Positions 45,833 through 63,225 of a stretch of 64,000 bases of DNA are shown in pieces (within the stretch, counting starts at the first letter, position 1; each line of letters begins with the position of its first letter). Location: the IMG/VR virus record IMGVR_UViG_3300037507_003370, positions 64,001-128,000 of that record, one strand, 5' to 3'. The translations under genes and the position numbers were made by a program. The notes under the pieces were generated by a model that worked only from the letters and a program-made list of their open reading frames with translations, did not search any database and was not told where the DNA came from. The stretch is from a virus (lineage: Duplodnaviria > Caudoviricetes).

Positions 45833-46634
45833 TGTCATCTCCTATTTCTATATAAGTTTCTTTATCGTTTTTAATTTTACTAATGGCTCTTATGAGATTA
45901 TCGTAAACAATATTGGCTCTTGTTTTAGAAAAATCTTTTGTTTGCTTTATCCTTATCAAAGATATTCCTTTACCAGCCAATAACCCAGTCTTCTTTGCAT
46001 CATATCCCTTGTTTCTTTTTAGGGACTCCTCGCCCCAAACAGGCTCAAAGTGAGATGGGCCATCAACCTCTATAGCTATGTTAAGAGTGGGAATAAAAAG
46101 GTCAATCTGTAATTTTGTATTTGACAGTATCTGTTCCTTGTGGAAACTAATAACATAGCCATCGTGTATTAATTTTTCTAGTAAGAATTTTTCAAGTTTG
46201 GAACCCTTCTTACTACTATCTCTTACTGCATTATTTGCCATCTTGATTATTTCTGATTTTTTATCATCGCTCATTTTATTCCATCGGTCCCTACTATTAT
46301 TTTTAATTTTAGAGACCTCTTCTTCTGTCATATCTTTCCATGTTTTATAAACACCAAGTCCTATTTTGTCTTTCACATCCTGAGTTCTGACTTTCCCTTT
46401 TGTTGGATGCTTATGCTTACCCGTATTCAAAGCATTCTTTTGAGCATCGCTTTTATTTCTTATATCTATATGAAATTTTTTAGCATCTCTTCTAATTTTG
46501 TTTGGATATGTATCATATTTTTTAGCTATGTCTATAAAAGACATTTTTTTGTTTACATACAGCTGTTCTATTATCTCTTTTTTTTTATTTTCATTATAAT
46601 TATCATAGCTTGATATATTCGAAGATTTTTTCAT
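45825..46634 (-). CDS. Vsr/DUF559-like endonuclease with HTH and NUMOD3-like DNA-binding repeats (putative free-standing homing endonuclease)
   Basis: SKLEK...IDLFIP.LNIAIEVDGPSH...D..K..LL..KG..LIRI nuclease core. N-terminal S..DIAKKY HTH and KGK.R..D.K.KI repeats. Confidence 0.75.
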   Translation of the reverse strand: MKKSSNISSYDNYNENKKKEIIEQLYVNKKMSFIDIAKKYDTYPNKIRRDAKKFHIDIRNKSDAQKNALNTGKHKHPTKGKVRTQDVKDKIGLGVYKTWKDMTEEEVSKIKNNSRDRWNKMSDDKKSEIIKMANNAVRDSSKKGSKLEKFLLEKLIHDGYVISFHKEQILSNTKLQIDLFIPTLNIAIEVDGPSHFEPVWGEESLKRNKGYDAKKTGLLAGKGISLIRIKQTKDFSKTRANIVYDNLIRAISKIKNDKETYIEIGDDNA

Positions 46635-49476: not shown

Positions 49477-50371
49477 AATCGACCACCGTGTTGTTAGCGA
49501 GTGAAAATATCTCTGAGATATCAGATATAAAATTATGGTTATTTAAAATATTCTTATTTTTTTCTATATTCATTTTTCTAATAATTTGATCGTACTGAGT
49601 ATTTAATTGAGAAAACATTGACAATATAGAAGCTGTATCCGGAGTAAAAAATATACTCTGGTTATTAGAAGAGTTTTGATGAGGGGTTAAAGAGACAGCC
49701 CCAAAAAAATTTGCATATAAATAATTTGTGAACTTATGTTCATCAATATGTAGTATCATTTTAGCAGATTTGATCTTGTTCATTAAAGGATCATCAGAAT
49801 AATCAGAGCAATGATCGACATTCAATCCTTCTTTTTTTAGTTCGTTGATAATTGATTTAATCATTTCCGGATCCGTATCACTGTGCAGAACTAAAACATC
49901 AATATTCTTATTTAACTGCAACAGATCTACTTGTCCGAAAACCTGATCCAAATTAGGTATAGAATGAAATACATTTGGATGACCAATAGACTTTATTCCT
50001 TTATATGTTTCATTGTCTAAACATAATATGTATTCATATTTAGATATAGCTTTTTTAACAGCTTCATTCAAGTTCACAATTCTACCTTCAATAATTAAAA
50101 TCGTTGACACGCCATCTATCGATTTATCTCTTTCGTTATCAGATCCTAATGTTACATTAAAATTATAACCCAAATCATTACTTGATGGACCTATGTAGCA
50201 ACCATCCATTTTTGCTGGCCCCGACTTAATAGTAAATGAGTGGTTTGATTTTTCACAAATTAAGCTGAATAAATGATCAAAACATCCTCCAATAGCATTA
50301 TATGCTATATGATAAGAGTCTTTATAGCTACATCTTCTTATTGCATTTTTTACACTATATCCAATAAACAT
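49469..50371 (-). CDS. Glycosyltransferase-like protein (GT-B/CgeB-like, divergent)
   Basis: KNIDVLVL...IINELKKEGL.V......L..KIKSAKMIL....ANFFGAV.L resembles the GT-B C-terminal half. Confidence 0.45.
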   Translation of the reverse strand: MFIGYSVKNAIRRCSYKDSYHIAYNAIGGCFDHLFSLICEKSNHSFTIKSGPAKMDGCYIGPSSNDLGYNFNVTLGSDNERDKSIDGVSTILIIEGRIVNLNEAVKKAISKYEYILCLDNETYKGIKSIGHPNVFHSIPNLDQVFGQVDLLQLNKNIDVLVLHSDTDPEMIKSIINELKKEGLNVDHCSDYSDDPLMNKIKSAKMILHIDEHKFTNYLYANFFGAVSLTPHQNSSNNQSIFFTPDTASILSMFSQLNTQYDQIIRKMNIEKNKNILNNHNFISDISEIFSLANNTVVDYA

Positions 50372-51510
50372 AATTTTTTCCCTACTTCTTGATAGCTGAA
50401 TTGATTGGTCATTAGTTTTGATTGATCTGATTTATATTTTAATAATTCTTTATTGGTTTTATAAATCTCTATTGCGTTTCTTATGGTCTGTCTGATACTT
50501 AAAACAGAAGGACTCATACCCACCTCATATTCTGAATCATGATCTAGAAGTCCATTACCAGAATATTCTACTTGTTCTTCTATTGCTGGTATAATAAAAC
50601 CATTATCATTATTCACGTAATCTGTTGGTCCTGTATTTTCTACACATATTGGAATATTTCCAAATCTCATAGACTCAGCTAGTGGTCTACAAAAAGCTTC
50701 TCCTTTAGATGGACATACGAATATATCACAGTAATAGTGTAATTTTAAGATATCATATCTGCTGATATTTTCTGTAATCAGAAGCACTTTACTACCCAGC
50801 CCTTTATGAAATCTCAATGTAGATAATTCTTTTTCTAAAGATTTGATAAAAGAATCTTTTTTCTCGTCTGGAATATGAGAAGTTTTAATTACCAAAACAA
50901 CTTTTTCTCTTTCCATTATTTCTGACCTAAAAGCCTTAATCAAATTAATGATATTTTTTCTTTTAATAAAAGTACCAATAAAGTATAACTTGATATAATC
51001 TTTATATTTTGTATTTAATCCTACAAAATCCCTATTGTCTGTTTCTATAACAGATATCGCGCTATCTATTTCTTCACACGGTATTACTTGAGATATTGTA
51101 TGTATTGGTTTATGAACACCTGAGTCTACTAATGCTCTTTTTTCTATAGAGCTTGGTACACATATTTTATCAAGCTGATTAAGTGGTTGTATTATTCCAT
51201 AATTTTTGGTTAAATTATTAACTTCAAATACATTTATGCCGACATTAGAAGATGTTTTGTCGGTATAGATTGCTTGAGGAAGCACTTTTTGTATGATAGT
51301 ATCAAATTTTGTAATTGTCTCTGATTCTAGAATCCTAACATATTCTGGTATGTTTTGAGCAATTTCTTGAGAAAAGTATACTGGGTGAATTTTTAAACTA
51401 TAGTTTTTTTCATTACAAGCATATATTATAGAGTTAAGATATCCTAGAGAAGCATTTCCCCAGCCATCATTTTGCCTATATGGAGCTATGTACAAAATAT
51501 TTTTAGACAT
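50350..51510 (-). CDS. Family 4 (GT-B) glycosyltransferase
   Basis: LYFIGTFIKRKNIINLIKAF...CDIFVCPSKGEAFCRPLAESMRFG...TGPTDYV. Start set at ATG 51510 (MSKNILYIAPY). Confidence 0.85.
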   Translation of the reverse strand: MSKNILYIAPYRQNDGWGNASLGYLNSIIYACNEKNYSLKIHPVYFSQEIAQNIPEYVRILESETITKFDTIIQKVLPQAIYTDKTSSNVGINVFEVNNLTKNYGIIQPLNQLDKICVPSSIEKRALVDSGVHKPIHTISQVIPCEEIDSAISVIETDNRDFVGLNTKYKDYIKLYFIGTFIKRKNIINLIKAFRSEIMEREKVVLVIKTSHIPDEKKDSFIKSLEKELSTLRFHKGLGSKVLLITENISRYDILKLHYYCDIFVCPSKGEAFCRPLAESMRFGNIPICVENTGPTDYVNNDNGFIIPAIEEQVEYSGNGLLDHDSEYEVGMSPSVLSIRQTIRNAIEIYKTNKELLKYKSDQSKLMTNQFSYQEVGKKLCLLDIV

Positions 51511-53182
51511 TATTTTTTGTCCTGTCATTGGCGTAATTAATAAAATCTTCTGTTTTAACAGCATCTGGATTAGCCAAAGCATATTTAGTTAAATTACGAT
51601 TCTCTATATTTTTATTTAAGAAATTAATCATATCTTCAAAATGATAAGGCTTTGTATTTGTGAATCCTTCTATGATAAATCCATAATCACTATGTTTTAA
51701 TAGGGATAGATTTCTCATATTATATATATCTTCTTCATTTAGATTATTATAGCAAACATGCTTGAAAGCATTGAAAGACTGGTTAAAGTTAGAACTTAAA
51801 TTTTTATAATCTATAGGTTTTTTATAGTAAGCATTATTAGATCCTGTCCATGATTTTTTTGTAGGTTGGAGCATTAATGAATCAAAAACAGACTCCCATA
51901 AATTAGCAGCATTATCCCAGGTGTATTTATTTTCTGTTAATTCTCTAGTTAGTTTAGATTTTTGTTGTTTTTCTTCGTTAGACATGCTAAAAAATTCGAA
52001 TAAAGTTTTAACTAAAATTCCATTATTTGGATAGCATCTAAATGCTTCTGTTTCTAATTCCTTAAAATATCTATCGGGAGGAATGCTAAAAGCATTTAAG
52101 TTTTTTATAATATCTGTCATAGCGCTATAATCAACAGATGCTAAAGGAATACCACAAGCGGCAGCTTCAACTTGTGGCATTCCAAAACCTTCACATATAG
52201 CATATTGAACATAAATATCGAATACGTTATATATTAGAGATAGTTGTTCAGACGAAACACCGTCTGTAACCGCTGGGAATACTGCACTTTTTTGTTTGCA
52301 ATATGGGCAATACTTAACTACATGATTGAAAGTATGGGCATGTATTCCACGGCATTTTTTACAAAAATATGTAAATAATACTCTTTTTGCAACTTCGTTT
52401 TCTTTTAGTAGCGCCGGTATATTCCACCCAGCATCAGGATACGTTGTATGCACATACAAGTACAAATCCTTACCATCTGCAGAATTATTTTTTTGATAAG
52501 TATTAAGTAAAATCCTAAAGCTTTGGAAAAGATCTGGTAGTAGTTTCCTTTTTTGATTACGCATTACGGTGCCAATAATACGAGCATCAGTATTAATCCC
52601 CAACTGTTTCCTAGCAAGATTTTTTTCTATGGGCTTAAATATATCTAGATCTACTCCAGGAGAAGCAGATCCGCAATATTTAATAAGGTTATTTGTTTGT
52701 TCAGATAAAACATGACCTCCCCATTCGCTATAGGACAAAACAGCATCTGCATCCATATAAACATCAAGCCATTCTTCTTGTTGTGGATAAGAGTCAACAG
52801 TTGGCATAACAGCCCATCTATAATAGGGCCTTAGTGGAGAGTATCTCTGGTATGAATTCATCCAAAAATCTCTTATATCAAAAACTATATCTGGCTTAAA
52901 GTCGTATACAACCCTATCAAATCTCCATTTACCAAAAGCATTTTCTCCAGAACTTGAATATTCTTGAAATCTTGGATCTTCTTGATTGACAGCATTTGGA
53001 TAATATCTCCATGGTATTTCCTGATCTCTTGGATCTCCAGGCATGCCATAAGATGCAAATTCTGCTATCTCATATTTGTTTTTTGCATAGAGTCTTTTAA
53101 GAATTTCTCTAGCATATACAGAATAGCCAGAACTTAAAAAGCTGGCTTCAGAACACATTAAAATTTTTGGTTTGGTTGTCAT
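51503..53182 (-). CDS. Family 4 (GT-B) glycosyltransferase with CxxC...CxxC insertion
   Basis: GTVMRNQKRK..PDL...YNVFDIYVQYAICEGFGMPQVEAAACG.P...VDYSAM. Start set at ATG 53182. Confidence 0.88.
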   Translation of the reverse strand: MTTKPKILMCSEASFLSSGYSVYAREILKRLYAKNKYEIAEFASYGMPGDPRDQEIPWRYYPNAVNQEDPRFQEYSSSGENAFGKWRFDRVVYDFKPDIVFDIRDFWMNSYQRYSPLRPYYRWAVMPTVDSYPQQEEWLDVYMDADAVLSYSEWGGHVLSEQTNNLIKYCGSASPGVDLDIFKPIEKNLARKQLGINTDARIIGTVMRNQKRKLLPDLFQSFRILLNTYQKNNSADGKDLYLYVHTTYPDAGWNIPALLKENEVAKRVLFTYFCKKCRGIHAHTFNHVVKYCPYCKQKSAVFPAVTDGVSSEQLSLIYNVFDIYVQYAICEGFGMPQVEAAACGIPLASVDYSAMTDIIKNLNAFSIPPDRYFKELETEAFRCYPNNGILVKTLFEFFSMSNEEKQQKSKLTRELTENKYTWDNAANLWESVFDSLMLQPTKKSWTGSNNAYYKKPIDYKNLSSNFNQSFNAFKHVCYNNLNEEDIYNMRNLSLLKHSDYGFIIEGFTNTKPYHFEDMINFLNKNIENRNLTKYALANPDAVKTEDFINYANDRTKNNV

Positions 53183-53209
53183 AGATAGAATTTTTATTTT
53201 AGTAAACAA

Positions 53210-53238
53210 TATGGTCCACGCTCTTAACATGGACCATA
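53210..53238 (-). terminator. Probable intrinsic terminator downstream of ssb
   Basis: On the minus strand UAUGGUCCAUG-UUAAGAG-CGUGGACCAUA forms an 11-bp stem with one G-U pair, followed by UUGUUU. Confidence 0.6.
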
Positions 53239-53251
53239 CTGCTTACATTAT

Positions 53252-53620
53252 TCAGAAACTAACGGCTTCTGCTTGTTCTGATGGCTTCTTAGAAACTTTC
53301 GTTATCTTGGAAAAATTATTTACTCTAACCTTAAGAGTATTGTGCTTAACTCCATCCTTTTCCCAAGCATCGTTTCTTAGAGTGCCTTCTACTAATACTA
53401 AGTCGCCCTTTTTAAACGACGAAGCAATAATTTCTGCCCCACTATCCCAAGCTTCGCAAGAAATAAATGAGGTAATCTTATCCTTATTGCCATTTGCCCT
53501 ACTAAATTCCTTTGAAACAGCAACTGTAAAATTAACTACAGATGTCTGCTTATCTCCAGACCCTACTGTTCTAATCTCAGGATCTCTAGTTAGATTACCA
53601 CGCAAAATTACAAGATTCAT
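53252..53620 (-). CDS. ssb: Single-stranded DNA-binding protein
   Basis: MNLVILRGNLTRDPEIR...VVNFTVAV...FISCEAW...KKGDLVLVEG.LR...W. AAGGAG SD 7 nt before ATG at 53620. Confidence 0.95.
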   Translation of the reverse strand: MNLVILRGNLTRDPEIRTVGSGDKQTSVVNFTVAVSKEFSRANGNKDKITSFISCEAWDSGAEIIASSFKKGDLVLVEGTLRNDAWEKDGVKHNTLKVRVNNFSKITKVSKKPSEQAEAVSF

Positions 53621-53657
53621 AATCAATCTCCTTTTAAAGGGTCAAAAACTCTATACT

Positions 53658-53685
53658 ATTGTATCAGATGACACGAGTGTGTCAA
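53658..53685 (-). promoter_or_regulatory. Sigma70-type promoter for ssb (TTGACA-N16-TACAAT, extended -10) with overlapping inverted repeat TGACAC-N4-GTGTCA
   Basis: Minus strand reads TTGACA CACTCGTGTCATCTGA TACAAT. The -35 box overlaps the dnaE-C stop codon. Palindrome at 53669-53684. Confidence 0.7.
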
Positions 53686-55292
53686 GTACTCGGCTCAAAA
53701 CATTTTTCTACAACGAATCCTTCACGACCATTTGTCAATTTATTGCCAATAAATACTAAAACTCTTTCTTCTTTTACTATATCAGAATACTTTTCATATT
53801 GTTCTGGAAATAGTATAACAGAATCAACCGTACCTGTTCCATCAAAGATTTCGATAAAGGACATTTCTGCTCCTTTATTTTTTCCTGTTTTAGTTTTGAC
53901 AATATTAACTCTGCCAATTTCTCCAATAATGGCTATTTTTTTACTATGGATACTATTTTTATAATCTTTACAGGTTACAATATTAAAATTACTCATATCA
54001 TAACAATCTGTTTTACTATAAGATATAGTTGTGCCAAGATAAAAAGACTCCATCTCTGTTATCCACTCCATAGTATCTTCTAAGCTATATGGAGGATTAA
54101 CTAAGCTTTTAATATATCCTTCTATAATAGTTTTTCTATTTTTGTTAATTTTATGGTTATTTAATAAAAAGGTTAATATAGATTCTAGTGTAGTAAACTT
54201 TTCGAATTCACAATTTTTTTCTATAAATTCGCATTCTTTTTTAGTTAAGTTAGTAATTATATCAAGATAAAATAACATTTCTTTTCTTGTTGATTTGAAC
54301 TCATCTAAACATCCACATGAAACTATAGCCTTTGCGGCCGAAATATTTATACGATTTAATAACAAGAATGCAACAGAAAACTTATTGGTGAATATATTTT
54401 TATCACATTTAGTTAGATTGTCCTGAATGCTGTTATAGACCGAATCTCCAACACCTTTAATATTAGTAATTCCAAAATATATTATATCATTAATTAATGA
54501 AAAGTCTTTCTTTGCGATAGATAAGTTTGGTATTCTAATATCTATATCCATTTCTATAGCATTTCTAACTAATTCTTTGATTTCCTGTTGAGGATCTATT
54601 TTATCTTTTGCAAACTTTAAATAAGATGTGAAAAATATTTTTGGAAAATGAGCCTTCGCATATGCTGATAAAAAACCATTAATAGCATAGCTTACAGCAT
54701 GGCTTTTATTAAAAGAATATCTTTGAGATTTTTCTATCCATCCAAATATTTGATCAGCTTCTTCTGAATTAACTATGTTATCTTTTATGCATCCTGATAA
54801 GAAGATTTTCTTAATTTTTGCCATTTCTTCTGGCTTTTTCTTTCCTATCGCTTTTCTTAACATGTCTGCTTCTTTGAGATCAAATCCGGCTATCGCTCTA
54901 GCTATTTGCATAGCTTGTTCTTGATAAATCATTTCGCCATAAGTGGATTTTAGAGAATCTTCTAATGCTGGATGGAAGTAATCTACGCTTTCCTTACCAT
55001 TTTTCTTATCTATAAAATGATCAGAAACGCTTTTATTATCTCTAATAGCCTCAAGACATCCTGGCCTCATAATACTAATTAAGGCAGACAGTTGTTCTAT
55101 ATTTTCTGGCTTCAATTTTTTGGCCATAGACTGACCAAGTCTAGATTCAAGCTGAAAACAGCCCTTAGTATTACCAGATCCAATTAATTCCCATGTCTTT
55201 TTACAGTTGAGATCGATATTTTCTGGTATAAACTTAATTCCGCTATCGTCTGCGGGGAATTTGCATCCGCATTCAAACGCAAGATACTTCAT
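53682..55292 (-). CDS. dnaE: DNA polymerase III alpha, C-terminal subunit (fingers, HhH, OB fold)
   Basis: GCFQLES, RPGCLE, TYGEMIYQEQAMQIA, ADMLRKAIGKK, YSFNKSHAVSY, GITNIKGVG, OB fold ending in VILFPEQY. Confidence 0.93.
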   Translation of the reverse strand: MKYLAFECGCKFPADDSGIKFIPENIDLNCKKTWELIGSGNTKGCFQLESRLGQSMAKKLKPENIEQLSALISIMRPGCLEAIRDNKSVSDHFIDKKNGKESVDYFHPALEDSLKSTYGEMIYQEQAMQIARAIAGFDLKEADMLRKAIGKKKPEEMAKIKKIFLSGCIKDNIVNSEEADQIFGWIEKSQRYSFNKSHAVSYAINGFLSAYAKAHFPKIFFTSYLKFAKDKIDPQQEIKELVRNAIEMDIDIRIPNLSIAKKDFSLINDIIYFGITNIKGVGDSVYNSIQDNLTKCDKNIFTNKFSVAFLLLNRINISAAKAIVSCGCLDEFKSTRKEMLFYLDIITNLTKKECEFIEKNCEFEKFTTLESILTFLLNNHKINKNRKTIIEGYIKSLVNPPYSLEDTMEWITEMESFYLGTTISYSKTDCYDMSNFNIVTCKDYKNSIHSKKIAIIGEIGRVNIVKTKTGKNKGAEMSFIEIFDGTGTVDSVILFPEQYEKYSDIVKEERVLVFIGNKLTNGREGFVVEKCFEPST

Positions 55293-55984
55293 GATTCTGT
55301 ATTTTTAAAAGACCCTTCGAATTTGATTTGCGGAGCTAGTCTTCTATGTAACTTCAAAAATCTTATCAATATTTCAGCACAATCTTTTACGTCTTTTAAA
55401 GCGTCGTGTGCTCCGTCTTTGGATATTCCAAGATATGATCGCAGATTATCCAGAGATATGCTTTTTATATCTTTATTATTTTCAAGCCAATAATAAGCTA
55501 AATTCATTATGTCTAATGTATCTCTGGGATAAAATAAGTCACACTCTCCATCTTTAGTGACATATCCAAACTTTTTTGTATATCTATCAACAATTTTAAG
55601 ATCAAATTTAAATATATTATATCCGGCAGTTACAGGAGCAGAAAACATATTTTTTTTTGTTCTATTTATATGGTAAAGCTCTAAATAGCTTTTGAACATT
55701 GACCAAGCCTGAGATTGACTAATAGAATTTTTCCATAAGTCTAAAATGTCAGATGCTTGGCATTTTTTTACTTTGGCATGAAAATCCAATATATCAGATT
55801 CTGCATAATCAAAATCTGGATTATCTTCTAACTTAGATGGTTTAACTTGGATATTAAATTCAGAGTCATCTATTATAGAAAGATCATAAGGGTCTATCAT
55901 GATTGCAGCAATTTGGACAGGACTGCATGAGGTTGGGTCTGATCCGTCGGTTTCGAAATCAAAAACGCATATTTTGTTTTTCAT
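55289..55984 (-). CDS. DnaQ-like DEDDh 3'-5' exonuclease (epsilon-like proofreader)
   Basis: ExoI VFDFETDG, ExoII GYNIFKFD, ExoIII HDALKD. ATGA-coupled to dnaE-C. Confidence 0.9.
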   Translation of the reverse strand: MKNKICVFDFETDGSDPTSCSPVQIAAIMIDPYDLSIIDDSEFNIQVKPSKLEDNPDFDYAESDILDFHAKVKKCQASDILDLWKNSISQSQAWSMFKSYLELYHINRTKKNMFSAPVTAGYNIFKFDLKIVDRYTKKFGYVTKDGECDLFYPRDTLDIMNLAYYWLENNKDIKSISLDNLRSYLGISKDGAHDALKDVKDCAEILIRFLKLHRRLAPQIKFEGSFKNTES

Positions 55985-58359
55985 AATGTCCTAAAAGGCA
56001 TATTTTCTATAGCCGTAGAAATGTTAAAAAGATTGTTAAAATAAATAGATGGTCCAATTACTGGACCGCAGGACCAAGGTGGTATTTCATAAGGTACGCA
56101 CCCTATCTTATAGTTGAAACTGAATGGTCTGTCAAGGGTTATTTTTGTGAGCGTTTGCTCTTTTATATAGTCCATCGAAACGATATTTAAAGACGCAAAA
56201 ACCTTTTCATAACGACGTATATCTGTATCTGTCGGTAATAATTGTTTCTTAGGAATCCAATATTCAATTTTTGTTGCACCTCTTTTAAATCTTGGAACAA
56301 AATTTCCAGACATAAATAAATATCTCAGATCCGTCCTGTCTGTAAAACAAGCAATTTTTTTATATGGTAACCAATTCCATAAGCCGTTATAAGATATAAA
56401 AGGAAAATTATCAGAATATGTTGTTATAAATTGTGGAGATCTATACCATTCATCTAATGATGTTGTCTCATCTCCGGTTTTAACTACCGGAATACCGTCA
56501 GCATCTAGATATGTTTGGTTAGCTAGTTTTGAATTGATAATAGTTCTGAATTTTTTGAAAGATTCTAGTGCTATAGGATACGGATCGTTTTTGACAGAGA
56601 GGTAAAGTTCTTCTAAGTCTATTTTATAGAAACCAAAAAATTTTGTTGTTTCCTCAGGATCTGTATCAGCATCCAAAAAATATTCAATCAATTGTTTTCC
56701 GTATATGCCAAGATCAAAGCTTTCTTTTTGGGTTGTTGAATCTATGCATGACCCGGGCCATCTAATGTCGTAACGCGCATTATTGCATGGTGGAGAGCTT
56801 TTATTAGGGTCTTGCGGAGATATTTTAGAATACGGATCAATGATCATCTGGTCAAAACTTGACTTTCCTCCAGAAATATAAAATCTAATTAAGTAAGGAT
56901 CTGTAATATAGTGATTTTCTATTAAAATATTATTTTGTTCATCGCAAGGAATGCCGTTAACCCCAGGCTGAGAAAGACTATTATCTTTAATTGTATCGTC
57001 TGGTTCTGGCATTGGTTTATAAAATTTTTCATAAACCTTGTCATCTTTTTCTACTTCCCGAATGTCCTTAACTGTATCAGTATATAGATATGGTTGAGTT
57101 TTTCTATGCCAAATATATGGTTTTTGTGTTTTAGGATTAAGTTTAAAAAAGTAAACAGGAGCAGATCTATTAAATCCATTAGATCTATCTTGATTAATAG
57201 GATCTGGATTGTAGTATTGTCCTTCTAATAGAGTATATTTTTTCTTATTTAAAAAATACTTAGGGAAAATATCATTTTTAGAAAATATTTCTTTAACACT
57301 TAATTTTTGTACTTGTGTTTTGATATTAAAAAGCTGTGTCAGATCTTCATCAAAAAATAATGCATCATATAATATAACATCTAATAAATTAGTTGTTTCT
57401 GTTATCATATATAATCCTCGAAGAGACCAAGGATCTATATTTACGTCAGAAAAAAGAGTAGAACCACTATGAGAACTATACAAATAAAAATTAGTACCAT
57501 ACTGTTCTAGTGCGGTAAATCTTTTTGCAATCGTACATTCGGATGCAAATGTGCCTCTATTTTTTTCTAAAATATTAGATACTGATATAGAACCTGGAAC
57601 TTCATATAATTCTTCTTCTGGAATCACGCTTAAAAGATCTCTATATGTTGCATGAAGACACAGTGCGTTGATCCTACAGCACCCGGCGTCTTTTTGGAAA
57701 GTTCTGATTTTTTTATATAGAACCCTATCTCTGTTATTTGGCTGTACTAATGTGAACACATCTCCAATTTGAAGAGATTCGAAGGTAGTAAATTCTTGTG
57801 GAAATAAATCTCCTGACCAGTCAGCATAAAAGTAAGATCCCCCACTTAATCTACCAAGAATAGTTTTTGGGCCGGCATTAATAGTAAGCCATTTATCTGA
57901 GTTTCTATTGTTTATATACAGAGGCTCTAGCTTTCTATAAACTGTTACAGACTCATCTGCAAAGTTTTGAAAGGTTCCTATTCCATATGCTCTGTCGCTA
58001 GTAGCATATATTGTACTAAAATAGTATCCAGCATTTATTGTTGTTTTTTTAATATCAAAAGATACAGGAATATCTATTTTTTTAGGAGATGTTATAAATT
58101 TAACACTTGATGGTTCTGCAACTTGTCCTTCTATGTTCGAACCCCAAACCCAAAACGTGCCATTTTCTTTCAATGCTACAGAGTGTGTCAGACCCATCCT
58201 TGCTTGAATCCAAGGAGAGCTATCGTTAGTACTATTTGTTAAAACCTCGTACTCTTTTCCTGCCTCTACTGGTCTATTGTGACCTAGTCCTAACTGACCA
58301 TGTCCATTATCCCCATATGCATACAATTTACCTTCAACAATCTTGATAACATGAGCCAT
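55981..58359 (-). CDS. RCC1/BLIP-II-repeat protein (792 aa) with an internal copy of the neighbouring small-protein domain
   Basis: LYAYGDNGHGQLGLG...MGLTHSVALKENGTFWVWGSNIEGQV...AGYYFS. C-terminal part not recognised. Confidence 0.75.
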   Translation of the reverse strand: MAHVIKIVEGKLYAYGDNGHGQLGLGHNRPVEAGKEYEVLTNSTNDSSPWIQARMGLTHSVALKENGTFWVWGSNIEGQVAEPSSVKFITSPKKIDIPVSFDIKKTTINAGYYFSTIYATSDRAYGIGTFQNFADESVTVYRKLEPLYINNRNSDKWLTINAGPKTILGRLSGGSYFYADWSGDLFPQEFTTFESLQIGDVFTLVQPNNRDRVLYKKIRTFQKDAGCCRINALCLHATYRDLLSVIPEEELYEVPGSISVSNILEKNRGTFASECTIAKRFTALEQYGTNFYLYSSHSGSTLFSDVNIDPWSLRGLYMITETTNLLDVILYDALFFDEDLTQLFNIKTQVQKLSVKEIFSKNDIFPKYFLNKKKYTLLEGQYYNPDPINQDRSNGFNRSAPVYFFKLNPKTQKPYIWHRKTQPYLYTDTVKDIREVEKDDKVYEKFYKPMPEPDDTIKDNSLSQPGVNGIPCDEQNNILIENHYITDPYLIRFYISGGKSSFDQMIIDPYSKISPQDPNKSSPPCNNARYDIRWPGSCIDSTTQKESFDLGIYGKQLIEYFLDADTDPEETTKFFGFYKIDLEELYLSVKNDPYPIALESFKKFRTIINSKLANQTYLDADGIPVVKTGDETTSLDEWYRSPQFITTYSDNFPFISYNGLWNWLPYKKIACFTDRTDLRYLFMSGNFVPRFKRGATKIEYWIPKKQLLPTDTDIRRYEKVFASLNIVSMDYIKEQTLTKITLDRPFSFNYKIGCVPYEIPPWSCGPVIGPSIYFNNLFNISTAIENMPFRTL

Positions 58360-58389
58360 GGTCCTTCCTTTAATCCTTTGATTTTATTT

Positions 58390-58578
58390 TTAACTATTGA
58401 TATTTTTAATTTCTACAACAGTATCATCTGACATAAAGTTTTGTTCATTGTTGCTAACTTTGACACAATTTATTGCTCTGCAACAGGAAACTCTTACTGT
58501 CTCTGTTTTTCTGTATGTTTCTCCACCAAAAGAAAAAACAGTATTTACGACTAAGTCTCTAAAAGCAGCGGTTGACAT
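58390..58578 (-). CDS. Small SH3-like/beta-barrel hypothetical protein with CC motif (62 aa)
   Basis: FRDL...VFSFGGETYRK...SCCRAINC. Fills the gap after dnaE-N and is homologous to a segment of the next gene. Confidence 0.75.
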   Translation of the reverse strand: MSTAAFRDLVVNTVFSFGGETYRKTETVRVSCCRAINCVKVSNNEQNFMSDDTVVEIKNINS

Positions 58579-58582
58579 AGTT

Positions 58583-60424
58583 TTACTCCGTAGTTAATAA
58601 TGACTGAATACACATAATTTTATCTAACATACCAATACCAAGTATATCAAATTTAACAATACCCAGGGCTTCCAAATCTTGCATTTCCATACCCGCGATA
58701 TTGGTACCCGTTTTAGTATCATACACCATAGGACAAACTTCATTTAAGTTATTGGCTGAAATAGCTATTCCTGCAGCATGTTTAGATTGATTGCATTTCG
58801 TTCCTTCTAATCTAATAGCTTGTTCAAATCTTTTTGCAAACATGCCGGATATGTTATTATCTTTATCTATTTTTACCCAATCCTTGAATTTATCTGGCGT
58901 ATTTTCTAGTGCCCACATAATTATAGAAGATTCTCCTGTTTCTTCTTTCATCTCTTGGAGATCATCAGCTATTTTAGCCTCATCTGGTATATTTTTAGTA
59001 ATTTGATTCATTTCATCAAAAGACAATCCTCCATATACTCTTAGGACTTCTTTTAAGGCTCCTCGTCCTTTCATAGTATTGAATGTAATCATTTGAGAAA
59101 CTCTGTTTTCTCCATATTTATTTTTTATATAGGATATGATTTCATCTCTTTTTGTCATTGGAACGTCTATGTCTATATCTGGCATAGAAATTCTATTTTC
59201 TGTATTACGTCCAGCATTATAAAATCTTTCAAACAGAAGATCATATTGTATTGGATTGATATTTGTTATCCCTAACAAATAAGAGACTAAACATCCAGCA
59301 GCACTGCCTCTTCCTGGTCCTGGCAACCATGAATTTTCTTTTACATATTTTACTATATCTTGGATTATTAAGAAATATCCAGATAAGTTAGCCCCTTGTA
59401 AAACCTCTAGTTCTTTTTTAATTCTTTCAACATATATATTTTTGTCTGATTCTGACAATGAATTTAGATCTCTATCTCTCCAGCCGTTTCTGCATAGTTG
59501 TCTTAAATACTCGTCTTCGTTTTCTATTACTTCGGGTAGTGTTGGCTTGTCTAATATATTATAATCTTCACACATTGAATCTATTAATAGAGTATTGTCT
59601 ATTTCAGATTCTGTATGTATTTTATTCATTTCTTCTCCGGATAATATATAGTAATTATCGGATTTGAAGAAAGCTCCCAAAGGAACCGCTTCGTCATTTA
59701 AAAGCTTTTTATTTATATCTTTAAATGTAGACTTAAGATTATTGCACAATAAAACCCTCTGATCTATAGCGTCTTCTTTATTTGCATAATGAGCATCATT
59801 TGTTGCAACAACTTTGATTTTTAATTTGTTAGATAAGTCTCTTATCATATCTGTTATAACTTTTTGTTCAGGACTATACTCTAGATCCATAAGCTGAGAT
59901 TCTAGAAATAAGTTGTCTCTGCCAAAAAGATCAATAAGATTATTAGCATGAAGTTTAGCCTGATTCATGTCTTCTTGCAATAAGCAATTATGCATGGTTG
60001 ACCCCATGTGTCCTGTGATACATATGAGTCCCGAAAGATCCATATCGGAGAGGTTCTGAATTGAGATCCTAGGCTTTCTATAAAAGTAGTCTGGCCTGTT
60101 GGTCTCAGAAACTAAACGAACTAAATTTTTCCATCCTGTATGGTTTTTGGCCAATACCAACATATGTTTCAGTTGTTGATTATCTTTGTTTTTTATTTTA
60201 GCATCATATTCGGATATATATAGCTCACACCCTAATATTGGTTTAATTTTTTTGGATTTTAGTGCTTGGTAAAAAGATACGCAGCCAGAAATTGTTCCAT
60301 GGTCTGTTATAGCACAAGACTTTGCTCCTATTGATAAACATCTATTTGCTATTTGTTCTGGCTTTGATAATCCGTCCAATAAAGAATAGTGACTATGAAC
60401 ATGCAAGGGTATATAATTTTTCAT
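58583..60424 (-). CDS. dnaE: DNA polymerase III alpha, N-terminal subunit (PHP, palm, thumb)
   Basis: LHVHSHYSLLDG, ITDHG, GCELY, TNDAHY, GPGRGSAAG, LLFERF, MPDIDID, KHAAG, KFDILG. Confidence 0.95.
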   Translation of the reverse strand: MKNYIPLHVHSHYSLLDGLSKPEQIANRCLSIGAKSCAITDHGTISGCVSFYQALKSKKIKPILGCELYISEYDAKIKNKDNQQLKHMLVLAKNHTGWKNLVRLVSETNRPDYFYRKPRISIQNLSDMDLSGLICITGHMGSTMHNCLLQEDMNQAKLHANNLIDLFGRDNLFLESQLMDLEYSPEQKVITDMIRDLSNKLKIKVVATNDAHYANKEDAIDQRVLLCNNLKSTFKDINKKLLNDEAVPLGAFFKSDNYYILSGEEMNKIHTESEIDNTLLIDSMCEDYNILDKPTLPEVIENEDEYLRQLCRNGWRDRDLNSLSESDKNIYVERIKKELEVLQGANLSGYFLIIQDIVKYVKENSWLPGPGRGSAAGCLVSYLLGITNINPIQYDLLFERFYNAGRNTENRISMPDIDIDVPMTKRDEIISYIKNKYGENRVSQMITFNTMKGRGALKEVLRVYGGLSFDEMNQITKNIPDEAKIADDLQEMKEETGESSIIMWALENTPDKFKDWVKIDKDNNISGMFAKRFEQAIRLEGTKCNQSKHAAGIAISANNLNEVCPMVYDTKTGTNIAGMEMQDLEALGIVKFDILGIGMLDKIMCIQSLLTTE

Positions 60425-61467
60425 TCTATGCTTCCTGGAGCTTTGTACTTTCCTACACTATAACCAGGAATCGTGTATTCGTCAACAACTGCATTCATAC
60501 CTTTTAGCTCTATGTCGTGTTTAACTTGCTCACACTTTGTCATAAATTGATTTTTTGCAATAAGCTGTCCATCTCTATACTCTATTGTGGGAAGAACGTG
60601 AGTGTTATCAAAATTACTTTTTCCAAAGTGACATAACTTACTACACATCCATGTTTTATTTAATCTAGGTTTTTTTGTATTTTTAATAACTTCAAATTTT
60701 TCTCTTAGCATACTTTCTGTTTTATAAATATCAGAACTATCAAATGTCATAGAAAAAGGACCGCCATCATTTATAAAAAATATCGTTATAATTATATGTT
60801 TAATTTCTGGATATAGTTTTTGTACAGCATAGAAGTATATCATTAATTGAGGATCTGTTTCTAGCTTAGACTGTGTTTTTTCTTCTCCTGTTGCCCAATT
60901 AAGTCTTTTTCCTGTTTTCCAGTCTATAATTTCTATGGTATCTTCTCCAACTTTTGTGATCAGGTCTATCGTTCCTTTTATAGCCAAATTTCCTTTTAGT
61001 GAATCTCCATTATTTAATTTATATGAATATTCTGCCCACTTTTTATCTATAGATATGTCGAATCTTTGTTCTGGACAAAGTATTTGTCTATTTCTTGGAT
61101 CAAAAAGACCGGAGCCATAATTTATTGCTTTATATACCCAGTCTCTACAATCAGAAAAATCTTTGTTAGACCATTTGTGATGAGAGAATTGTTCGCTGTA
61201 ATACTTGTATACAGATTCGATGATCTTGTCTAAATCATAATTATTTGTTAAAATTTCTCCAACTATTTCATCATTGCATGTTTTTTCGTTATTCTGCATC
61301 GCCTGTTTAATAACAGCTAAAATTTCTAATACTTTATGTACTATAGTGCCCTTATCTGCTTTTTGATTAGACGGACCTCTCCATCCTAAAACATATTCGA
61401 AAAAATATTGTTGCTCACACATACAATGAGTATTATACGACGAGCTGCGAAAATATGTAATTATAAT
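60421..61467 (-). CDS. PD-(D/E)XK exonuclease (RecB/AddB/Cas4-like), probable ATT/ATA start
   Basis: GTIVHKVLE, PEQRF, KGTIDLI, IIDWKTG, QLMIY, terminal C-x3-C...C. The in-frame upstream YFRSSSYNTHCMC motif has no ATG/GTG/TTG before it, and an AAGGA SD precedes ATT at 61467. Confidence 0.85.
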   Translation of the reverse strand: MIITYFRSSSYNTHCMCEQQYFFEYVLGWRGPSNQKADKGTIVHKVLEILAVIKQAMQNNEKTCNDEIVGEILTNNYDLDKIIESVYKYYSEQFSHHKWSNKDFSDCRDWVYKAINYGSGLFDPRNRQILCPEQRFDISIDKKWAEYSYKLNNGDSLKGNLAIKGTIDLITKVGEDTIEIIDWKTGKRLNWATGEEKTQSKLETDPQLMIYFYAVQKLYPEIKHIIITIFFINDGGPFSMTFDSSDIYKTESMLREKFEVIKNTKKPRLNKTWMCSKLCHFGKSNFDNTHVLPTIEYRDGQLIAKNQFMTKCEQVKHDIELKGMNAVVDEYTIPGYSVGKYKAPGSIE

Positions 61468-62063
61468 AGTATTATTCCTTTATTTTTGAGAAATTCTATA
61501 ATTTGATTATTTTGTTCATCTATATTCAGATTCTGATTATCAATAATTAAATCAAAATTATTTTGATCATATTGATCCGGATCTAATGCCATCTCACTAG
61601 CATGAAAAGAATTATAAGGATTTCTCGTCAGCTTAATAACAAAACCTCTAGCTTTTTTAACTGTATCAACTTCATTAGGAAATCTACAATCGGCAATTAT
61701 AGCCATATCTAAATTTTCTTTATTAATACGTCTAACTATAGCGTCAGACCAAACACTTTGTTTCATTCGTCTAAAAATATCTGTGCCAACAATTTGCATA
61801 ACTTCTCTAGCAGACAATTGGCGATTTTCCCAATAACAATCTACTAACTCATTTTTTTTAATATCCGATCCATAGCATTGTTCATAGGTCAAACCAAGTA
61901 TATCAATACATATATTTTGTTTCAATGGATCAGCAAAATTATATATAGCAATACTATTTTCAATAGTATGCTTATTGTATACAGATTGAACAAATTCGGA
62001 ACAAGTAGTTTTACCCGACTGTTTCCTTCCAGCAAATGCTATTATTTTAGTTTTAGTCATCAT
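61461..62063 (-). CDS. Deoxynucleoside monophosphate kinase (T4 gp1-like)
   Basis: IIAFAGRKQSGKTT, FADPLK, SAREVMQIVGT, IADCRFPNE. Confidence 0.9.
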   Translation of the reverse strand: MMTKTKIIAFAGRKQSGKTTCSEFVQSVYNKHTIENSIAIYNFADPLKQNICIDILGLTYEQCYGSDIKKNELVDCYWENRQLSAREVMQIVGTDIFRRMKQSVWSDAIVRRINKENLDMAIIADCRFPNEVDTVKKARGFVIKLTRNPYNSFHASEMALDPDQYDQNNFDLIIDNQNLNIDEQNNQIIEFLKNKGIILL

Positions 62064-63225
62064 ATATATTAGTTATATTTTTAAGGTTATCTATTATTAT
62101 AGAACAATCAGTGTCAGCTATGTCTGTTGTTACGAAATTAGGAACATGAATATTATAGGTTTTTTTGCATTTTTCAATTATTTTTTTAGTAGCTTCTATA
62201 CCAGCGGCATCATTGTCTAATAAGAGTATTAGTTCCATAGCGCCAGAAGTGTCTAAAATCATTTTTTGTCTATCGCTCATAGAGGAGCCAAATATGGCTA
62301 CGCTATTTCTTATTCCGCATTCTTCAAGCTTCCATACATTTCCAGGACTTTCTACAATGATAGCAACTTTAGTTTCTTTGATATAATGTTTGGCAAACCA
62401 GTAATTGTACAGATGGTTCTGTGCCTGAAACCCTGTATTATGTTTCCATTTTGGATATTTCCATCTATCTTCTACTCTAGGACATTGTTCTTCTGATGAA
62501 TGATAAGAATTACAGCTGTCGCATTTCTCAAAAATACTTCTACCAGAACATCCTGTCATGAATTTATAGTTATCATCATATATTGGTACAACTATTCTAT
62601 TATACATTTCTTTGTCTGATTTGTTACATAATCCAACATCGTATTTATTCAATACGGTATTGTTAAATCCTCTAGATAAAAAATATTCCGCTGGCATAAT
62701 TAGACTTTTTCTAATATTATGTCTAGATATTTTTTGATCATAAATATTTTGTACTGGTTTGATCGAATTTACTAATCCGGCAAATATAGCCTTGTCTCTA
62801 TCTGTTTTAGATATCTTAATAGAATCAAAGTCTTTATCTAAAAATTGCATACCATATTTTAATGCTTCGTCGAAAGAACAAACCTTGTCTCCTTCTTTGA
62901 TCCAATCAAATTTTTTGTTGGATAAAACTCCGCGAATGAAACCTATGATTGATGATTTAAAATATTTTTCACATCCATGAGTTCTGCATTTCCAGTTTCC
63001 TCTGTAAACCTCTCCGTCAGGATACAAATTTAATGCTGACTTATTATCGCCACCATGAATTGGGCAACTCATAGTTATCATCTTACCAGTAGATTTGTAT
63101 TCTAAATCTAAACTATTCAATAAATCATCTATATTATCACATAAATGATCACAGACTAATTTTAGCTTAGCCTGATCATACGAATTCGATTTGGTCTTTT
63201 TCATTTTGGTTAGTGTCTGACTCAT
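62053..63225 (-). CDS. dnaG: DnaG-type DNA primase
   Basis: Zn finger CPIH...WKCRTHGC, RIVVPI...GCSGR, Toprim IIVESPGN and LLDNDAAG. Start could be 63225 or 63204. Confidence 0.88.
   Translation of the reverse strand: MSQTLTKMKKTKSNSYDQAKLKLVCDHLCDNIDDLLNSLDLEYKSTGKMITMSCPIHGGDNKSALNLYPDGEVYRGNWKCRTHGCEKYFKSSIIGFIRGVLSNKKFDWIKEGDKVCSFDEALKYGMQFLDKDFDSIKISKTDRDKAIFAGLVNSIKPVQNIYDQKISRHNIRKSLIMPAEYFLSRGFNNTVLNKYDVGLCNKSDKEMYNRIVVPIYDDNYKFMTGCSGRSIFEKCDSCNSYHSSEEQCPRVEDRWKYPKWKHNTGFQAQNHLYNYWFAKHYIKETKVAIIVESPGNVWKLEECGIRNSVAIFGSSMSDRQKMILDTSGAMELILLLDNDAAGIEATKKIIEKCKKTYNIHVPNFVTTDIADTDCSIIIDNLKNITNIYDD

What the first reader, a model, noticed from the sequence alone, without database searches (positions are those of the whole stretch)
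53682..60424. Intein-free split DNA polymerase III alpha: two genes separated by about 3.3 kb carrying three other genes
Seen in sequence: dnaE-N (58583-60424) ends just after KFDILG, and dnaE-C (53682-55292) starts just before the GCFQLES motif. Established: in E. coli alpha all three catalytic Asp residues (DxD and the KFD motif) lie in the palm, and the fingers begin at about residue 560, so the break falls at the palm/fingers boundary. The cyanobacterial split-intein site (Y/CFNKSH) is intact here as YSFNKSH, and neither end has intein motifs. Inference: a heterodimeric C-family replicase that assembles non-covalently, with its DnaQ-like proofreader translationally coupled to the C subunit.
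Basis: partly seen in the sequence, partly recalled or inferred. Interest (0 to 1): 0.8.

Follow-up and report, generated by a model that had tools for sequence, protein, structure and literature searches.

The report
Intein-free two-gene phage DNA polymerase III
An uncultured lake-water jumbo phage, like thousands of its relatives, encodes its only recognisable DNA polymerase (a bacterial-type Pol III alpha) as two separate genes cut between the catalytic palm and the fingers, with an exonuclease gene between them and no intein or intron to rejoin them, so the enzyme most likely works as a non-covalent two-piece polymerase.

Summary
DnaE-N (58583-60424, minus strand) carries the PHP domain, palm and thumb. 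DnaE-C (53682-55292) carries the fingers, HhH and OB domains. Together they make one complete Pol III alpha with nothing missing or duplicated. The break lies in a variable loop about 20 residues after the KFD aspartate. Three genes sit between the halves: a 62-aa ORF (s62), an RCC1-like 792-aa gene and a DEDDh (DnaQ-like) exonuclease.

There are no intein, intron or homing-endonuclease signatures. Contigs from four other lake samples bridge every gene junction. All 80 related IMG/VR loci share the split. 140 of the 150 best 50%-identity cluster representatives are N halves ending at this site. Two complete ~240-kb relatives have one N half, one C half and no PolA, PolB or PolY match.

The s62-exonuclease pair is the core intervening content in the window's clade. 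RCC1 is a recent insertion, and deeper lineages carry other genes there. Trees place two contiguous-gene clades inside the split radiation (AU p=0.003), which suggests one old fission and two re-fusions.

Non-covalent assembly is inferred, not shown. I rate it a new variant of a known kind (intein-free genes-in-pieces). Interest 0.6.

The parts
58583..60424 (-). dnaE-N: PHP domain, palm and thumb of Pol III alpha (613 aa). All nine PHP metal-ligand positions are kept. The palm aspartates are D416, D418 and D593.
   Evidence: Pfam PF02811 and PF07733; phrog_405 positions 41-611; alignment to Taq alpha; these residues are invariant or nearly invariant in 27 relatives.
58646..58648 (-). Codon of D593 (the KFD motif), the third catalytic aspartate. 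It lies 20 residues before the N stop.
   Evidence: Translation and sequence; invariant K591 F592 D593.
58390..58578 (-). s62: a conserved 62-aa ORF with the motif R-V-S-C-C-[KR], predicted to be a small SH3/KOW-like beta barrel. Function unknown.
   Evidence: Present in 78 of 78 related loci that span the region; invariant F15, C32 and C33; AF2 pLDDT 92; only weak fold matches to eIF5A/EF-P domain I, FeoA and KOW/Tudor barrels; no Pfam, PHROG or NCBIfam family.
55981..58359 (-). RCC1-like 792-aa gene, a lineage-specific insertion between s62 and the exonuclease.
   Evidence: RCC1 repeats at residues 9-132; found only in L001 and L002 among the 80 loci.
55289..55984 (-). DEDDh 3'-5' exonuclease (DnaQ/RNase T superfamily, 231 aa). 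Its stop overlaps the dnaE-C start (ATGA).
   Evidence: Pfam RNase_T E 3e-11 and phrog_192 'DNA polymerase exonuclease subunit' E 2e-22; D9, E11, D128, H193 and D198 invariant; AF2 pLDDT 87 with best fold matches to the PolC exonuclease domain, RNase T and a TREX1 homologue.
53682..55292 (-). dnaE-C: fingers, HhH (beta-binding) domain and OB fold of Pol III alpha (536 aa). It ends just after the OB fold.
   Evidence: Pfam PF17657 and PF14579, plus a weak PF01336 hit; phrog_405 positions 619-1055; alignment to E. coli and Taq alpha; the fingers motifs FQLES, RPG, YQEQ, LRKAIGKKK and FNKSH are invariant.
55227..55292 (-). C-half head (about residues 1-22) with the motif F-x-C-G-C-K-F. This is extra sequence relative to contiguous homologues and is absent in one sub-clade.
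   Evidence: Junction alignments.
54699..54719 (-). YSFNKSH, the site where cyanobacterial DnaE carries its split intein. It is uninterrupted here.
   Evidence: Translation; the cyanobacterial split-half models NF007079 and NF005616 align about 200 residues downstream of this break.
60421..63225 (-). Upstream genes of the same tightly packed replication block: DnaG-like primase (62053-63225), dNMP kinase (61461-62063) and PD-(D/E)XK nuclease (60421-61422).
   Evidence: Pfam and PHROG hits; synteny is the same in all 80 loci.
50350..53626 (-). Downstream genes of the block: SSB (53252-53626) and two glycosyltransferases (51503-53230 and 50350-51582).
   Evidence: synteny.

Best explanation
The phage's replicative C-family polymerase is made from two polypeptides that associate non-covalently. 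The N subunit supplies the PHP domain, the palm with the three catalytic aspartates, and the thumb. The C subunit supplies the fingers (dNTP and template contacts), the HhH/beta-binding domain and the OB fold. The active site is therefore composite and forms only when the two subunits dock along the normal palm-fingers interface. The cut lies in a variable surface loop after the last palm helix. The genes are co-transcribed in one tightly packed block, N - s62 - (RCC1) - exonuclease - C, with overlapping or nearly abutting stops and starts. This layout should give coupled, local synthesis of the halves together with a DEDDh exonuclease that probably serves as the proofreader. The split is old and arose at the base of a large radiation of aquatic phages. 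The space between the halves later collected different genes, and two lineages appear to have re-fused the gene. Shown here: the gene anatomy, conservation, spread, absence of splicing elements, and lack of any other recognisable polymerase in complete relatives. Inferred: physical assembly, activity, the proofreading role of the exonuclease, any role of s62, and the direction of the evolutionary changes.
For: 1) The break is clean. N and C tile one DnaE profile (phrog_405 41-611 and 619-1055) and tile Taq alpha up to residue 625 and from residue 637. In an alignment with contiguous relatives the cut falls in a gap-rich loop.
2) Function is under selection. Across 27 relatives at 53-72% identity to the window's halves, the PHP ligands, D416/D418/D593, all fingers motifs and the exonuclease DEDDh residues are invariant or nearly so.
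3) The split is widespread. All 80 IMG/VR loci have it with the same synteny. The top 120 N-like proteins are 609-633 aa and the top 120 C-like proteins are 530-555 aa. 140 of the 150 best 50%-identity cluster representatives end within 25 residues of the same site.
4) It is not an artefact. Contigs from four other lake samples bridge every gene junction and show no joined form.
5) No splicing element is present. No intein family matches N or C, although complete inteins are detected at other sites in related N halves. Rfam finds nothing in the window. Only 20 residues follow the KFD aspartate in N, only about 22 precede conserved sequence in C, and in one sub-clade that head is absent altogether.
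6) It is the only polymerase found. Two complete direct-terminal-repeat relatives (244 and 238 kb) have one PF07733 hit, one PF17657 hit, and no PolA, PolB or PolY hit.
7) The genes are tightly coupled.
8) There is precedent. Intein-free split NrdA of phage Aeh1 and split gp43 of phage 25 assemble and are active (PMC3045599, PMC2988022).
Against: No experiment or expression data bear on assembly or activity. The exonuclease falls far below the curated cut-offs of the epsilon models and is about equally similar to RNase T, ExoI and TREX-type enzymes. No beta-clamp N-domain (PF00712) was found in the complete relatives, so how processivity is achieved is unknown. The intervening genes differ among deep lineages, and one lineage has no exonuclease between the halves. 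The exonuclease position therefore cannot be the universal reason for the split. Only five polymerase-related Pfam families were searched in the complete relatives, so an unrecognised polymerase cannot be excluded.
Confidence: 0.8

Rival explanations
1. The halves are joined covalently after transcription or translation, by a split intein, a trans-spliced or very large intron, or ribosomal bypassing.
For: DnaE is the classic host of split inteins (cyanobacteria, and 'fractured' DnaE genes in aquatic metagenomes, PMC2677866). Related N halves do carry complete inteins at other sites. One weak sub-threshold Intein_splicing match (12.8 bits against a cut-off of 35.8) lies inside the body of the C half of relative G002.
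Against: No intein family matches N or C. N has only about 20 residues after the KFD aspartate. C has about 22 residues before conserved fingers sequence, and in one sub-clade none, whereas known split-intein parts are 88-105 plus 33-54 residues (PMC2677866). There is no conserved Cys/Ser/Thr-type junction residue. Rfam finds no intron in the window. The intervening 0.9-3.3 kb encodes conserved, tightly coupled proteins. The G002 hit is not at the break and adds no length.
Confidence: 0.03
2. The two ORFs do not form a polymerase. They are decaying remnants or have separate new functions, and replication relies on a host or other phage polymerase.
For: No biochemical data exist. No phage clamp was found.
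Against: Both halves are conserved across thousands of sequences, with every catalytic and substrate-binding motif invariant. They always occur together and in order. They are embedded in a full phage replication module of helicase, primase, SSB and nuclease. No PolA, PolB, PolY or second DnaE match was found in two complete relatives.
Confidence: 0.05
3. The break is an assembly or sequencing artefact, such as a chimera or a frameshift.
For: The window is a metagenomic contig.
Against: Contigs of four non-source lake runs cover the stretch at 95-100% identity, bridge all junctions and show no indels or joints. 24 runs hold the stretch or part of it, 16 of them at least half of its sampled words. 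80 independent viral contigs show the same arrangement.
Confidence: 0.01
4. Evolutionary rival: the contiguous gene is ancestral within this phage group, and the fission at this loop happened many times independently, rather than once followed by two re-fusions.
For: The loop is variable and evidently tolerant of a break. The genes between the halves differ among deep lineages. Fused-clade genomes keep an orthologous exonuclease elsewhere in the same module, as expected if it later moved into dnaE. The tree uses the N half only, deep nodes are weakly supported, and the root depends on distant bacterial outgroups.
Against: With a bacterial outgroup, both contiguous clades nest inside split lineages in the FastTree and the IQ-TREE PMSF trees. 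The fewest changes is 3 in all, and 2 among the viral rows. The AU test rejects the best tree that holds the split rows together (p 0.0033). Under this rival, many independent cuts at the same residue window would be needed.
Confidence: 0.2

Closest known systems
Cyanobacterial split DnaE with a naturally split intein (Synechocystis and Nostoc type)
   Same: The C-family replicase alpha subunit is encoded by two genes.
   Different: There the halves carry split-intein parts, lie at separate loci, are cut at the ...Y/CFNKSH site and are ligated by trans-splicing (background in PMC2677866). Here that site is intact, the cut is about 200 residues upstream, the halves share one operon and no intein is present.
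'Fractured genes' of aquatic metagenomes (Dassa et al. 2009, PMC2677866), including three DnaE loci
   Same: These are phage-type replication genes broken in two, with another gene lying between the halves in the same locus, found in lake and marine metagenomes.
   Different: Fractured genes carry split inteins at the break and a free-standing homing endonuclease between the parts. Here there is neither. The intervening genes are a small SH3-like ORF, a DEDDh exonuclease and sometimes others.
Intein-free 'genes in pieces' of T4-like phages: Aeh1 NrdA-a/NrdA-b split by mobE, gp43A/gp43B of Aeromonas phages 25 and 44RR, and T4 gp39/gp60 (PMC3045599, PMC2988022)
   Same: An essential enzyme is split into adjacent cistrons and reassembles non-covalently without RNA or protein splicing. 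New terminal tails occur at the break, comparable to the C-half head here. The split family-B polymerase co-purifies and is active.
   Different: Those splits are confined to a few phages and are tied to homing-endonuclease or untranslated insertions. This one is in a C-family polymerase, separates the palm from the fingers, is fixed across a very large and old radiation (140 of the 150 best 50%-identity cluster representatives), has no endonuclease at the site, and shows apparent re-fusions. Activity here is untested.
E. coli Pol III core (alpha-epsilon-theta) and Gram-positive PolC
   Same: A DnaE/PolC-type polymerase is combined with a DEDDh exonuclease. In PolC the exonuclease is embedded inside the polymerase gene, and in E. 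coli a small third subunit (theta) accompanies epsilon.
   Different: Here the exonuclease is a separate gene placed between two polymerase genes at the palm-fingers boundary, not inserted in the PHP domain. It does not reach the epsilon model cut-offs. s62 has no detectable relation to theta. The PHP domain keeps all metal ligands.
Interrupted DnaE of cultured phages, for example Bacillus phage vB_BceM_WH1 gp235-237
   Same: DnaE is annotated in several pieces in a jumbo phage.
   Different: In that phage the three pieces are separated by non-coding gaps of about 725 and 404 nt at other positions. That pattern is typical of introns (my inference, not tested). The closest INPHARED relatives of the window's halves are contiguous genes.

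Membership tests
C-family DNA polymerase, DnaE type (Pol III alpha) | PHP domain with its metal-binding residues | tested here: met
   PF02811 E 1e-38. H8, H10, D17, H42, E67, H87, H139, D210 and H212 align with the Taq alpha PHP residues and are invariant or nearly so in 27 relatives.
C-family DNA polymerase, DnaE type (Pol III alpha) | Pol-beta-like palm with three catalytic aspartates (PDxD ... KFD) | tested here: met
   PF07733 full length, E 2.7e-73; D416, D418 and D593 invariant.
C-family DNA polymerase, DnaE type (Pol III alpha) | Fingers domain motifs, HhH/beta-binding domain and OB fold | tested here: met
   PF17657 E 4e-48 and PF14579 E 1.6e-7; the OB fold is weak (E 4e-4, below cut-off). 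FQLES, RPG, YQEQ, GKKK and FNKSH are invariant.
C-family DNA polymerase, DnaE type (Pol III alpha) | All domains on one polypeptide | tested here: not met
   There are two ORFs 3.3 kb apart, and the same is seen in 80 loci. N reaches the TIGR00594 superfamily cut-off and C does not. Neither half reaches any equivalog cut-off.
Split-intein DnaE (cyanobacterial type) | Split-intein N and C parts flanking the break | tested here: not met
   No Hint or intein family matches N or C, while the same search finds inteins in related N halves. The tails are too short.
Split-intein DnaE (cyanobacterial type) | Break at the Y/CFNKSH site | tested here: not met
   YSFNKSH is uninterrupted at C residues 192-198. 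The cyanobacterial half models align across this break.
Fractured genes (split intein plus free-standing homing endonuclease) | A homing endonuclease gene between the halves | tested here: not met
   The intervening ORFs match RCC1 and RNase_T or no family at all. None matches an HNH, GIY-YIG, LAGLIDADG or Vsr family. Deep lineages carry UDG-like, VWA-like and unknown genes instead.
Intein-free genes-in-pieces (Aeh1 NrdA and phage 25 gp43 type) | The gene is contiguous in relatives, and the halves are adjacent cistrons with no splicing element | tested here: met
   Contiguous relatives at 40-53% identity share the same synteny. There are no intein or Rfam hits.
Intein-free genes-in-pieces (Aeh1 NrdA and phage 25 gp43 type) | The halves physically assemble into an active enzyme | not testable with these tools
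   This needs co-purification and activity assays.
DnaQ / Pol III epsilon proofreading subunit | DEDDh exonuclease fold and motifs | tested here: met
   RNase_T E 3e-11; D9, E11, D128, H193 and D198 invariant; fold matches to the PolC exonuclease domain, RNase T and DnaQ domains.
DnaQ / Pol III epsilon proofreading subunit | Score above the curated epsilon model cut-off; binding to the PHP domain | tested here: not met
   NF004964 scores 19.6 bits against a cut-off of 236, so the sequence criterion is not met. Binding to the PHP domain cannot be tested here.

The most novel reading that the evidence does not exclude
The palm/fingers fission is an ancient, selectively maintained architecture of a major radiation of aquatic large phages rather than tolerated damage. 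The inter-half slot acts as a docking bay for polymerase accessory genes: the DEDDh exonuclease, the conserved SH3-like s62 as a new core subunit, and the RCC1-like protein that carries an s62-like segment. These products would be assembled co-translationally with the two halves. The gene has been re-fused at least twice, which would make this a natural example of reversible fission in a replicative polymerase.
Probability: 0.25. Interest if true: 0.75.

Novelty: new variant of a known kind. Interest (0 to 1): 0.6.

Why it matters
If the two halves do assemble, this is a natural C-family replicase whose active site is built across a subunit interface. It would be used by a very large group of abundant lake and marine phages. 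It would show where Pol III alpha tolerates a backbone break, which is useful for split-polymerase engineering and for dissecting palm-fingers motions. It extends the 'genes in pieces without splicing' solution from a few T4-like phages to a whole radiation and to another polymerase family. The nested contiguous clades offer a test case for gene fission followed by re-fusion. It also matters for annotation: thousands of these ORFs are labelled 'DNA polymerase III alpha' and could be mistaken for fragments or pseudogenes.

Tried and rejected
- Complex prediction (N 270-613, C 1-290, the exonuclease, and s62 as partner): no verdict, score 0.00. This gives no information for or against binding. 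N and C at full length exceed the tool's size limit, so the N-C pair itself was not tested.
- The look-up of sequencing runs: no RNA holder was listed, so expression and splicing could not be examined. Only DNA contigs were laid.
- No whole genome is held for the window.
- s62: no Pfam, PHROG or NCBIfam family. The ESM Atlas gives only unnamed viral clusters. Foldseek against PDB gives no match at E <= 0.001, and the wide VIA search gives Z <= 5.5, which indicates generic small beta barrels only. An s62 profile found no copy in the contiguous-gene loci or in L087-L089.
- s62-like segment in the RCC1-like protein: hmmsearch was not significant and hhalign gave probability 31%, E 5e-4. I keep it only as a lead.
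- Promoter and terminator scans and repeat searches over 53-64 kb were at chance level. No flanking repeats mark a mobile insertion.
- Rfam over the whole window: no hit. tRNA scan: none.
- PF00712 clamp search in the two complete relatives: no hit.
- Seven literature searches found only intein-based split DnaE and no description of this arrangement. The library lacks most subscription journals.
- Bacteroides phage DAC19 matched N to its last residue but proved to be one 1274-aa CDS.
- The SDBT01 accession of L089 is only a bulk sediment metagenome assembly.
- The host and the phage's taxonomic lineage were not determined.

Full report
**What is there.** On the minus strand of 50.3-64.0 kb lies a tightly packed replication block:
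- a DnaB-like helicase, cut by the window end
- a DnaG-like primase (62053-63225)
- a dNMP kinase (61461-62063)
- a PD-(D/E)XK nuclease (60421-61422)
- dnaE-N (58583-60424)
- a 62-aa ORF, here called s62 (58390-58578)
- an RCC1-like 792-aa gene (55981-58359)
- a DEDDh exonuclease (55289-55984)
- dnaE-C (53682-55292)
- SSB (53252-53626)
- two glycosyltransferases

N (613 aa) holds the PHP domain and the complete palm/thumb Pfam domain. C (536 aa) holds the fingers, the HhH domain and, weakly, the OB fold.

**The break.** On the full-length phage DnaE profile phrog_405, N covers positions 41-611 and C covers 619-1055. Against solved structures, N residue 600 aligns with Taq alpha 625, C residue 15 with Taq 637 and C residue 26 with E. 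coli alpha 589. Nothing is missing or duplicated.

Aligned with contiguous relatives, N stops and C starts inside a gap-rich, variable loop. That loop follows the helix after the KFD strand and precedes the first fingers helix. From my knowledge of the E. coli and Taq structures this is the palm-to-fingers transition. Pfam agrees: PF07733 ends at N596 and PF17657 begins at C16.

C carries about 22 extra N-terminal residues with a common F-x-C-G-C-K-F motif. One sub-clade lacks this head entirely.

**It is real and common.**
- The stretch or part of it is held by 24 lake-water runs, 16 of them with at least half of its sampled words. Contigs from four non-source runs bridge every gene junction without indels or joints.
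- All 80 IMG/VR loci fetched with N (61-73% identity) have the split and the same gene order.
- The 120 best N-like proteins in the 5.8-billion-protein collection are 609-633 aa with only PHP and palm domains. The 120 best C-like proteins are 530-555 aa.
- Among the 150 best 50%-identity cluster representatives, 140 are N halves that end within 25 residues of the same point.
- Relatives occur in lake, marine (Tara) and deep-sea sediment assemblies.
- Two relatives are complete genomes with direct terminal repeats, of 243,821 and 237,915 bp. The group therefore includes jumbo phages.

**No splicing element.**
- Neither half matches an intein family. The same search does find complete LAGLIDADG inteins at other positions in related N halves that still end at this break.
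- Known split-intein parts need 88-105 plus 33-54 residues (PMC2677866). Here only 20 residues follow the KFD aspartate and at most about 22 precede conserved fingers sequence.
- Rfam finds nothing in the window.
- The intervening DNA is coding, conserved and coupled. In 26 clean relatives most junctions overlap by 1-8 nt or are separated by 1-6 nt. In the window the RCC1/exonuclease and exonuclease/C junctions are both ATGA overlaps.

**It should be functional.** Across 27 diverged relatives the following are invariant or nearly so:
- the nine PHP metal-ligand positions
- the palm aspartates D416, D418 and D593
- the fingers motifs FQLES, RPG, YQEQ, GKKK and FNKSH
- the exonuclease residues D9, E11, D128, H193 and D198

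The two complete relatives each contain exactly one palm hit and one fingers hit, and no PolA, PolB or PolY hit. This makes the split enzyme the only recognisable polymerase in those genomes.

The best-supported mechanism is therefore a non-covalent N-C heterodimer with a composite active site, made from one operon together with a DEDDh exonuclease. This is inferred, because no tool here could test binding or activity. Experimental precedent exists for intein-free split NrdA (phage Aeh1) and split gp43 (phage 25) (PMC3045599, PMC2988022).

**What lies between the halves.** In the window's clade the conserved content is s62 plus the exonuclease. s62 is present in 78 of 78 loci that span the region. 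The RCC1-like gene occurs only in the window and its two closest relatives, so it is a late insertion.

s62 has an invariant F15 and Cys pair (motif R-V-S-C-C-K/R). It folds confidently (pLDDT 92) as a small SH3/KOW-like barrel, and the Cys pair sits on a hairpin tip. Only generic barrel matches were found, so its role is unknown.

The exonuclease has the DEDDh fold. It resembles the PolC exonuclease domain, RNase T and TREX-type enzymes about equally, and it does not reach the epsilon model cut-offs. 'Proofreader' is therefore an inference from its context.

Deeper split lineages differ in what they carry between N and C:
| Lineage | Genes between N and C |
|---|---|
| L088 | exonuclease only |
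| L087 | UDG-like gene, a 150-aa gene, exonuclease |
| P0289 | a 56-aa and a 225-aa gene |
| L089 | three unrelated genes, no exonuclease |

The break position is the constant. The cargo is variable.

**Evolution.** Contiguous relatives exist at 40-53% identity to N, with a total length equal to N plus C (1099-1146 aa) and the same flanking synteny. They keep an orthologous exonuclease elsewhere in the module: between the glycosyltransferase genes in L081 and L083, and upstream in L082.

N-region trees were rooted with bacterial DnaE. Both the FastTree tree (167 rows) and the IQ-TREE LG+C20 PMSF tree (53 rows) place the two contiguous clades separately inside the split radiation. The minimum is 3 state changes. 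An AU test rejects the best tree that holds all split rows together (p 0.0033).

The simplest reading is one old fission followed by two re-fusions. Repeated fission at the same loop is the alternative. Several caveats apply. The trees use the N half only. Deep nodes are weakly supported. The outgroup is distant. The tested group was named after the tree had been seen, although it is defined by an independent trait.

**Comparison with what is known.** Split DnaE is known only with split inteins, in cyanobacteria and in 'fractured genes' that have a homing endonuclease between the parts (PMC2677866). Both defining features were tested here and are not met.

Functionally the closest kind is the intein-free genes-in-pieces of T4-like phages (PMC3045599, PMC2988022). 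The present case differs in several ways. The enzyme family is C rather than B or an RNR. The cut is at the palm-fingers boundary. No endonuclease is present. The scale and age are much greater. There are apparent re-fusions.

Interrupted DnaE in Bacillus phage vB_BceM_WH1 has non-coding gaps at other sites. The nearest INPHARED phages have contiguous genes. Seven full-text searches found no description of this arrangement. The library is incomplete, so I call it undescribed only as far as I could search.

**Verdict.** Novelty: a new variant of a known kind. Interest 0.6. A specialist would find a naturally two-piece C-family replicase used by a whole radiation of abundant phages notable and directly testable, although the principle of non-covalent genes-in-pieces is established.

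Noticed in passing
window 1183-44290 (+): Seven very large ORFs stand in a row (1238, 2477, 1461, 2957, 1328, 1188 and 2212 aa). Of the four scanned with Pfam, two show fibronectin type III domains and two show nothing. The one scanned with PHROGs had no hit. They are presumably giant structural or fibre proteins.
   Followed up: partly
window 45825-46634 (-): An HNH/homing-endonuclease-like ORF (phrog_559, E 2e-12) lies about 7 kb from the replication block, not at the dnaE break.
   Followed up: no
window 57574-57792 (-); L001:12618-12821; L002:12617-12820: The RCC1-like protein contains a conserved segment (F..L..GD.F ... Y.K ... GCC..NA) that resembles the neighbouring s62 ORF, including the Cys pair. 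hhalign gives probability 31%, E 5e-4. It may be an s62-like domain fused to RCC1 repeats.
   Followed up: partly
window 55227-55292 (-) and 58390-58578 (-): The C-half head carries F-x-C-G-C-K-F in most relatives, and s62 carries an invariant S-C-C. These clusters of conserved cysteines next to the break could form a metal or disulfide site. One sub-clade lacks the C head but keeps s62.
   Followed up: partly
protein P0373 (a relative, 762 aa): An N half ends at the usual site but is fused there to a circularly permuted YpsA SLOG domain (PF12694, E 1.6e-35). The N C-terminus therefore tolerates an added domain.
   Followed up: no
proteins P0264, P0151 and P0307; L082:2572-4539: Related N halves carry complete LAGLIDADG inteins in the PHP domain (about residue 67) and in the palm (about residues 377-388). 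In L082 the PD-(D/E)XK nuclease gene is 655 aa with a LAGLIDADG domain. This replication module is an intein hotspot, yet the break itself has none.
   Followed up: partly
L083:9439-10143; L081:16491-17180; L082:4555-5289: In genomes with a contiguous dnaE, the orthologue of the inter-half exonuclease sits elsewhere. It lies between the two glycosyltransferase genes in L083 and L081, and upstream after the PD-(D/E)XK gene in L082. Exonuclease relocation therefore goes with the fused or split state.
   Followed up: partly
L089:7985-9391: A deep-sea sediment relative has three unrelated genes between N and C and no exonuclease there: a 57-aa helical ORF, a 190-aa Cys-rich ORF, and a 216-aa ORF with a weak VWA match.
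   Followed up: partly
window about 44.3-44.8 kb: Gene orientation switches here from the plus-strand giant ORFs to the minus-strand replication and glycosyltransferase block, and the AT-skew sign changes at the same place.
   Followed up: no
G002:C1:45029-45508: A sub-threshold Intein_splicing match (12.8 bits, E 0.009) lies inside the body of a relative's C half of normal length. It is probably spurious.
   Followed up: no
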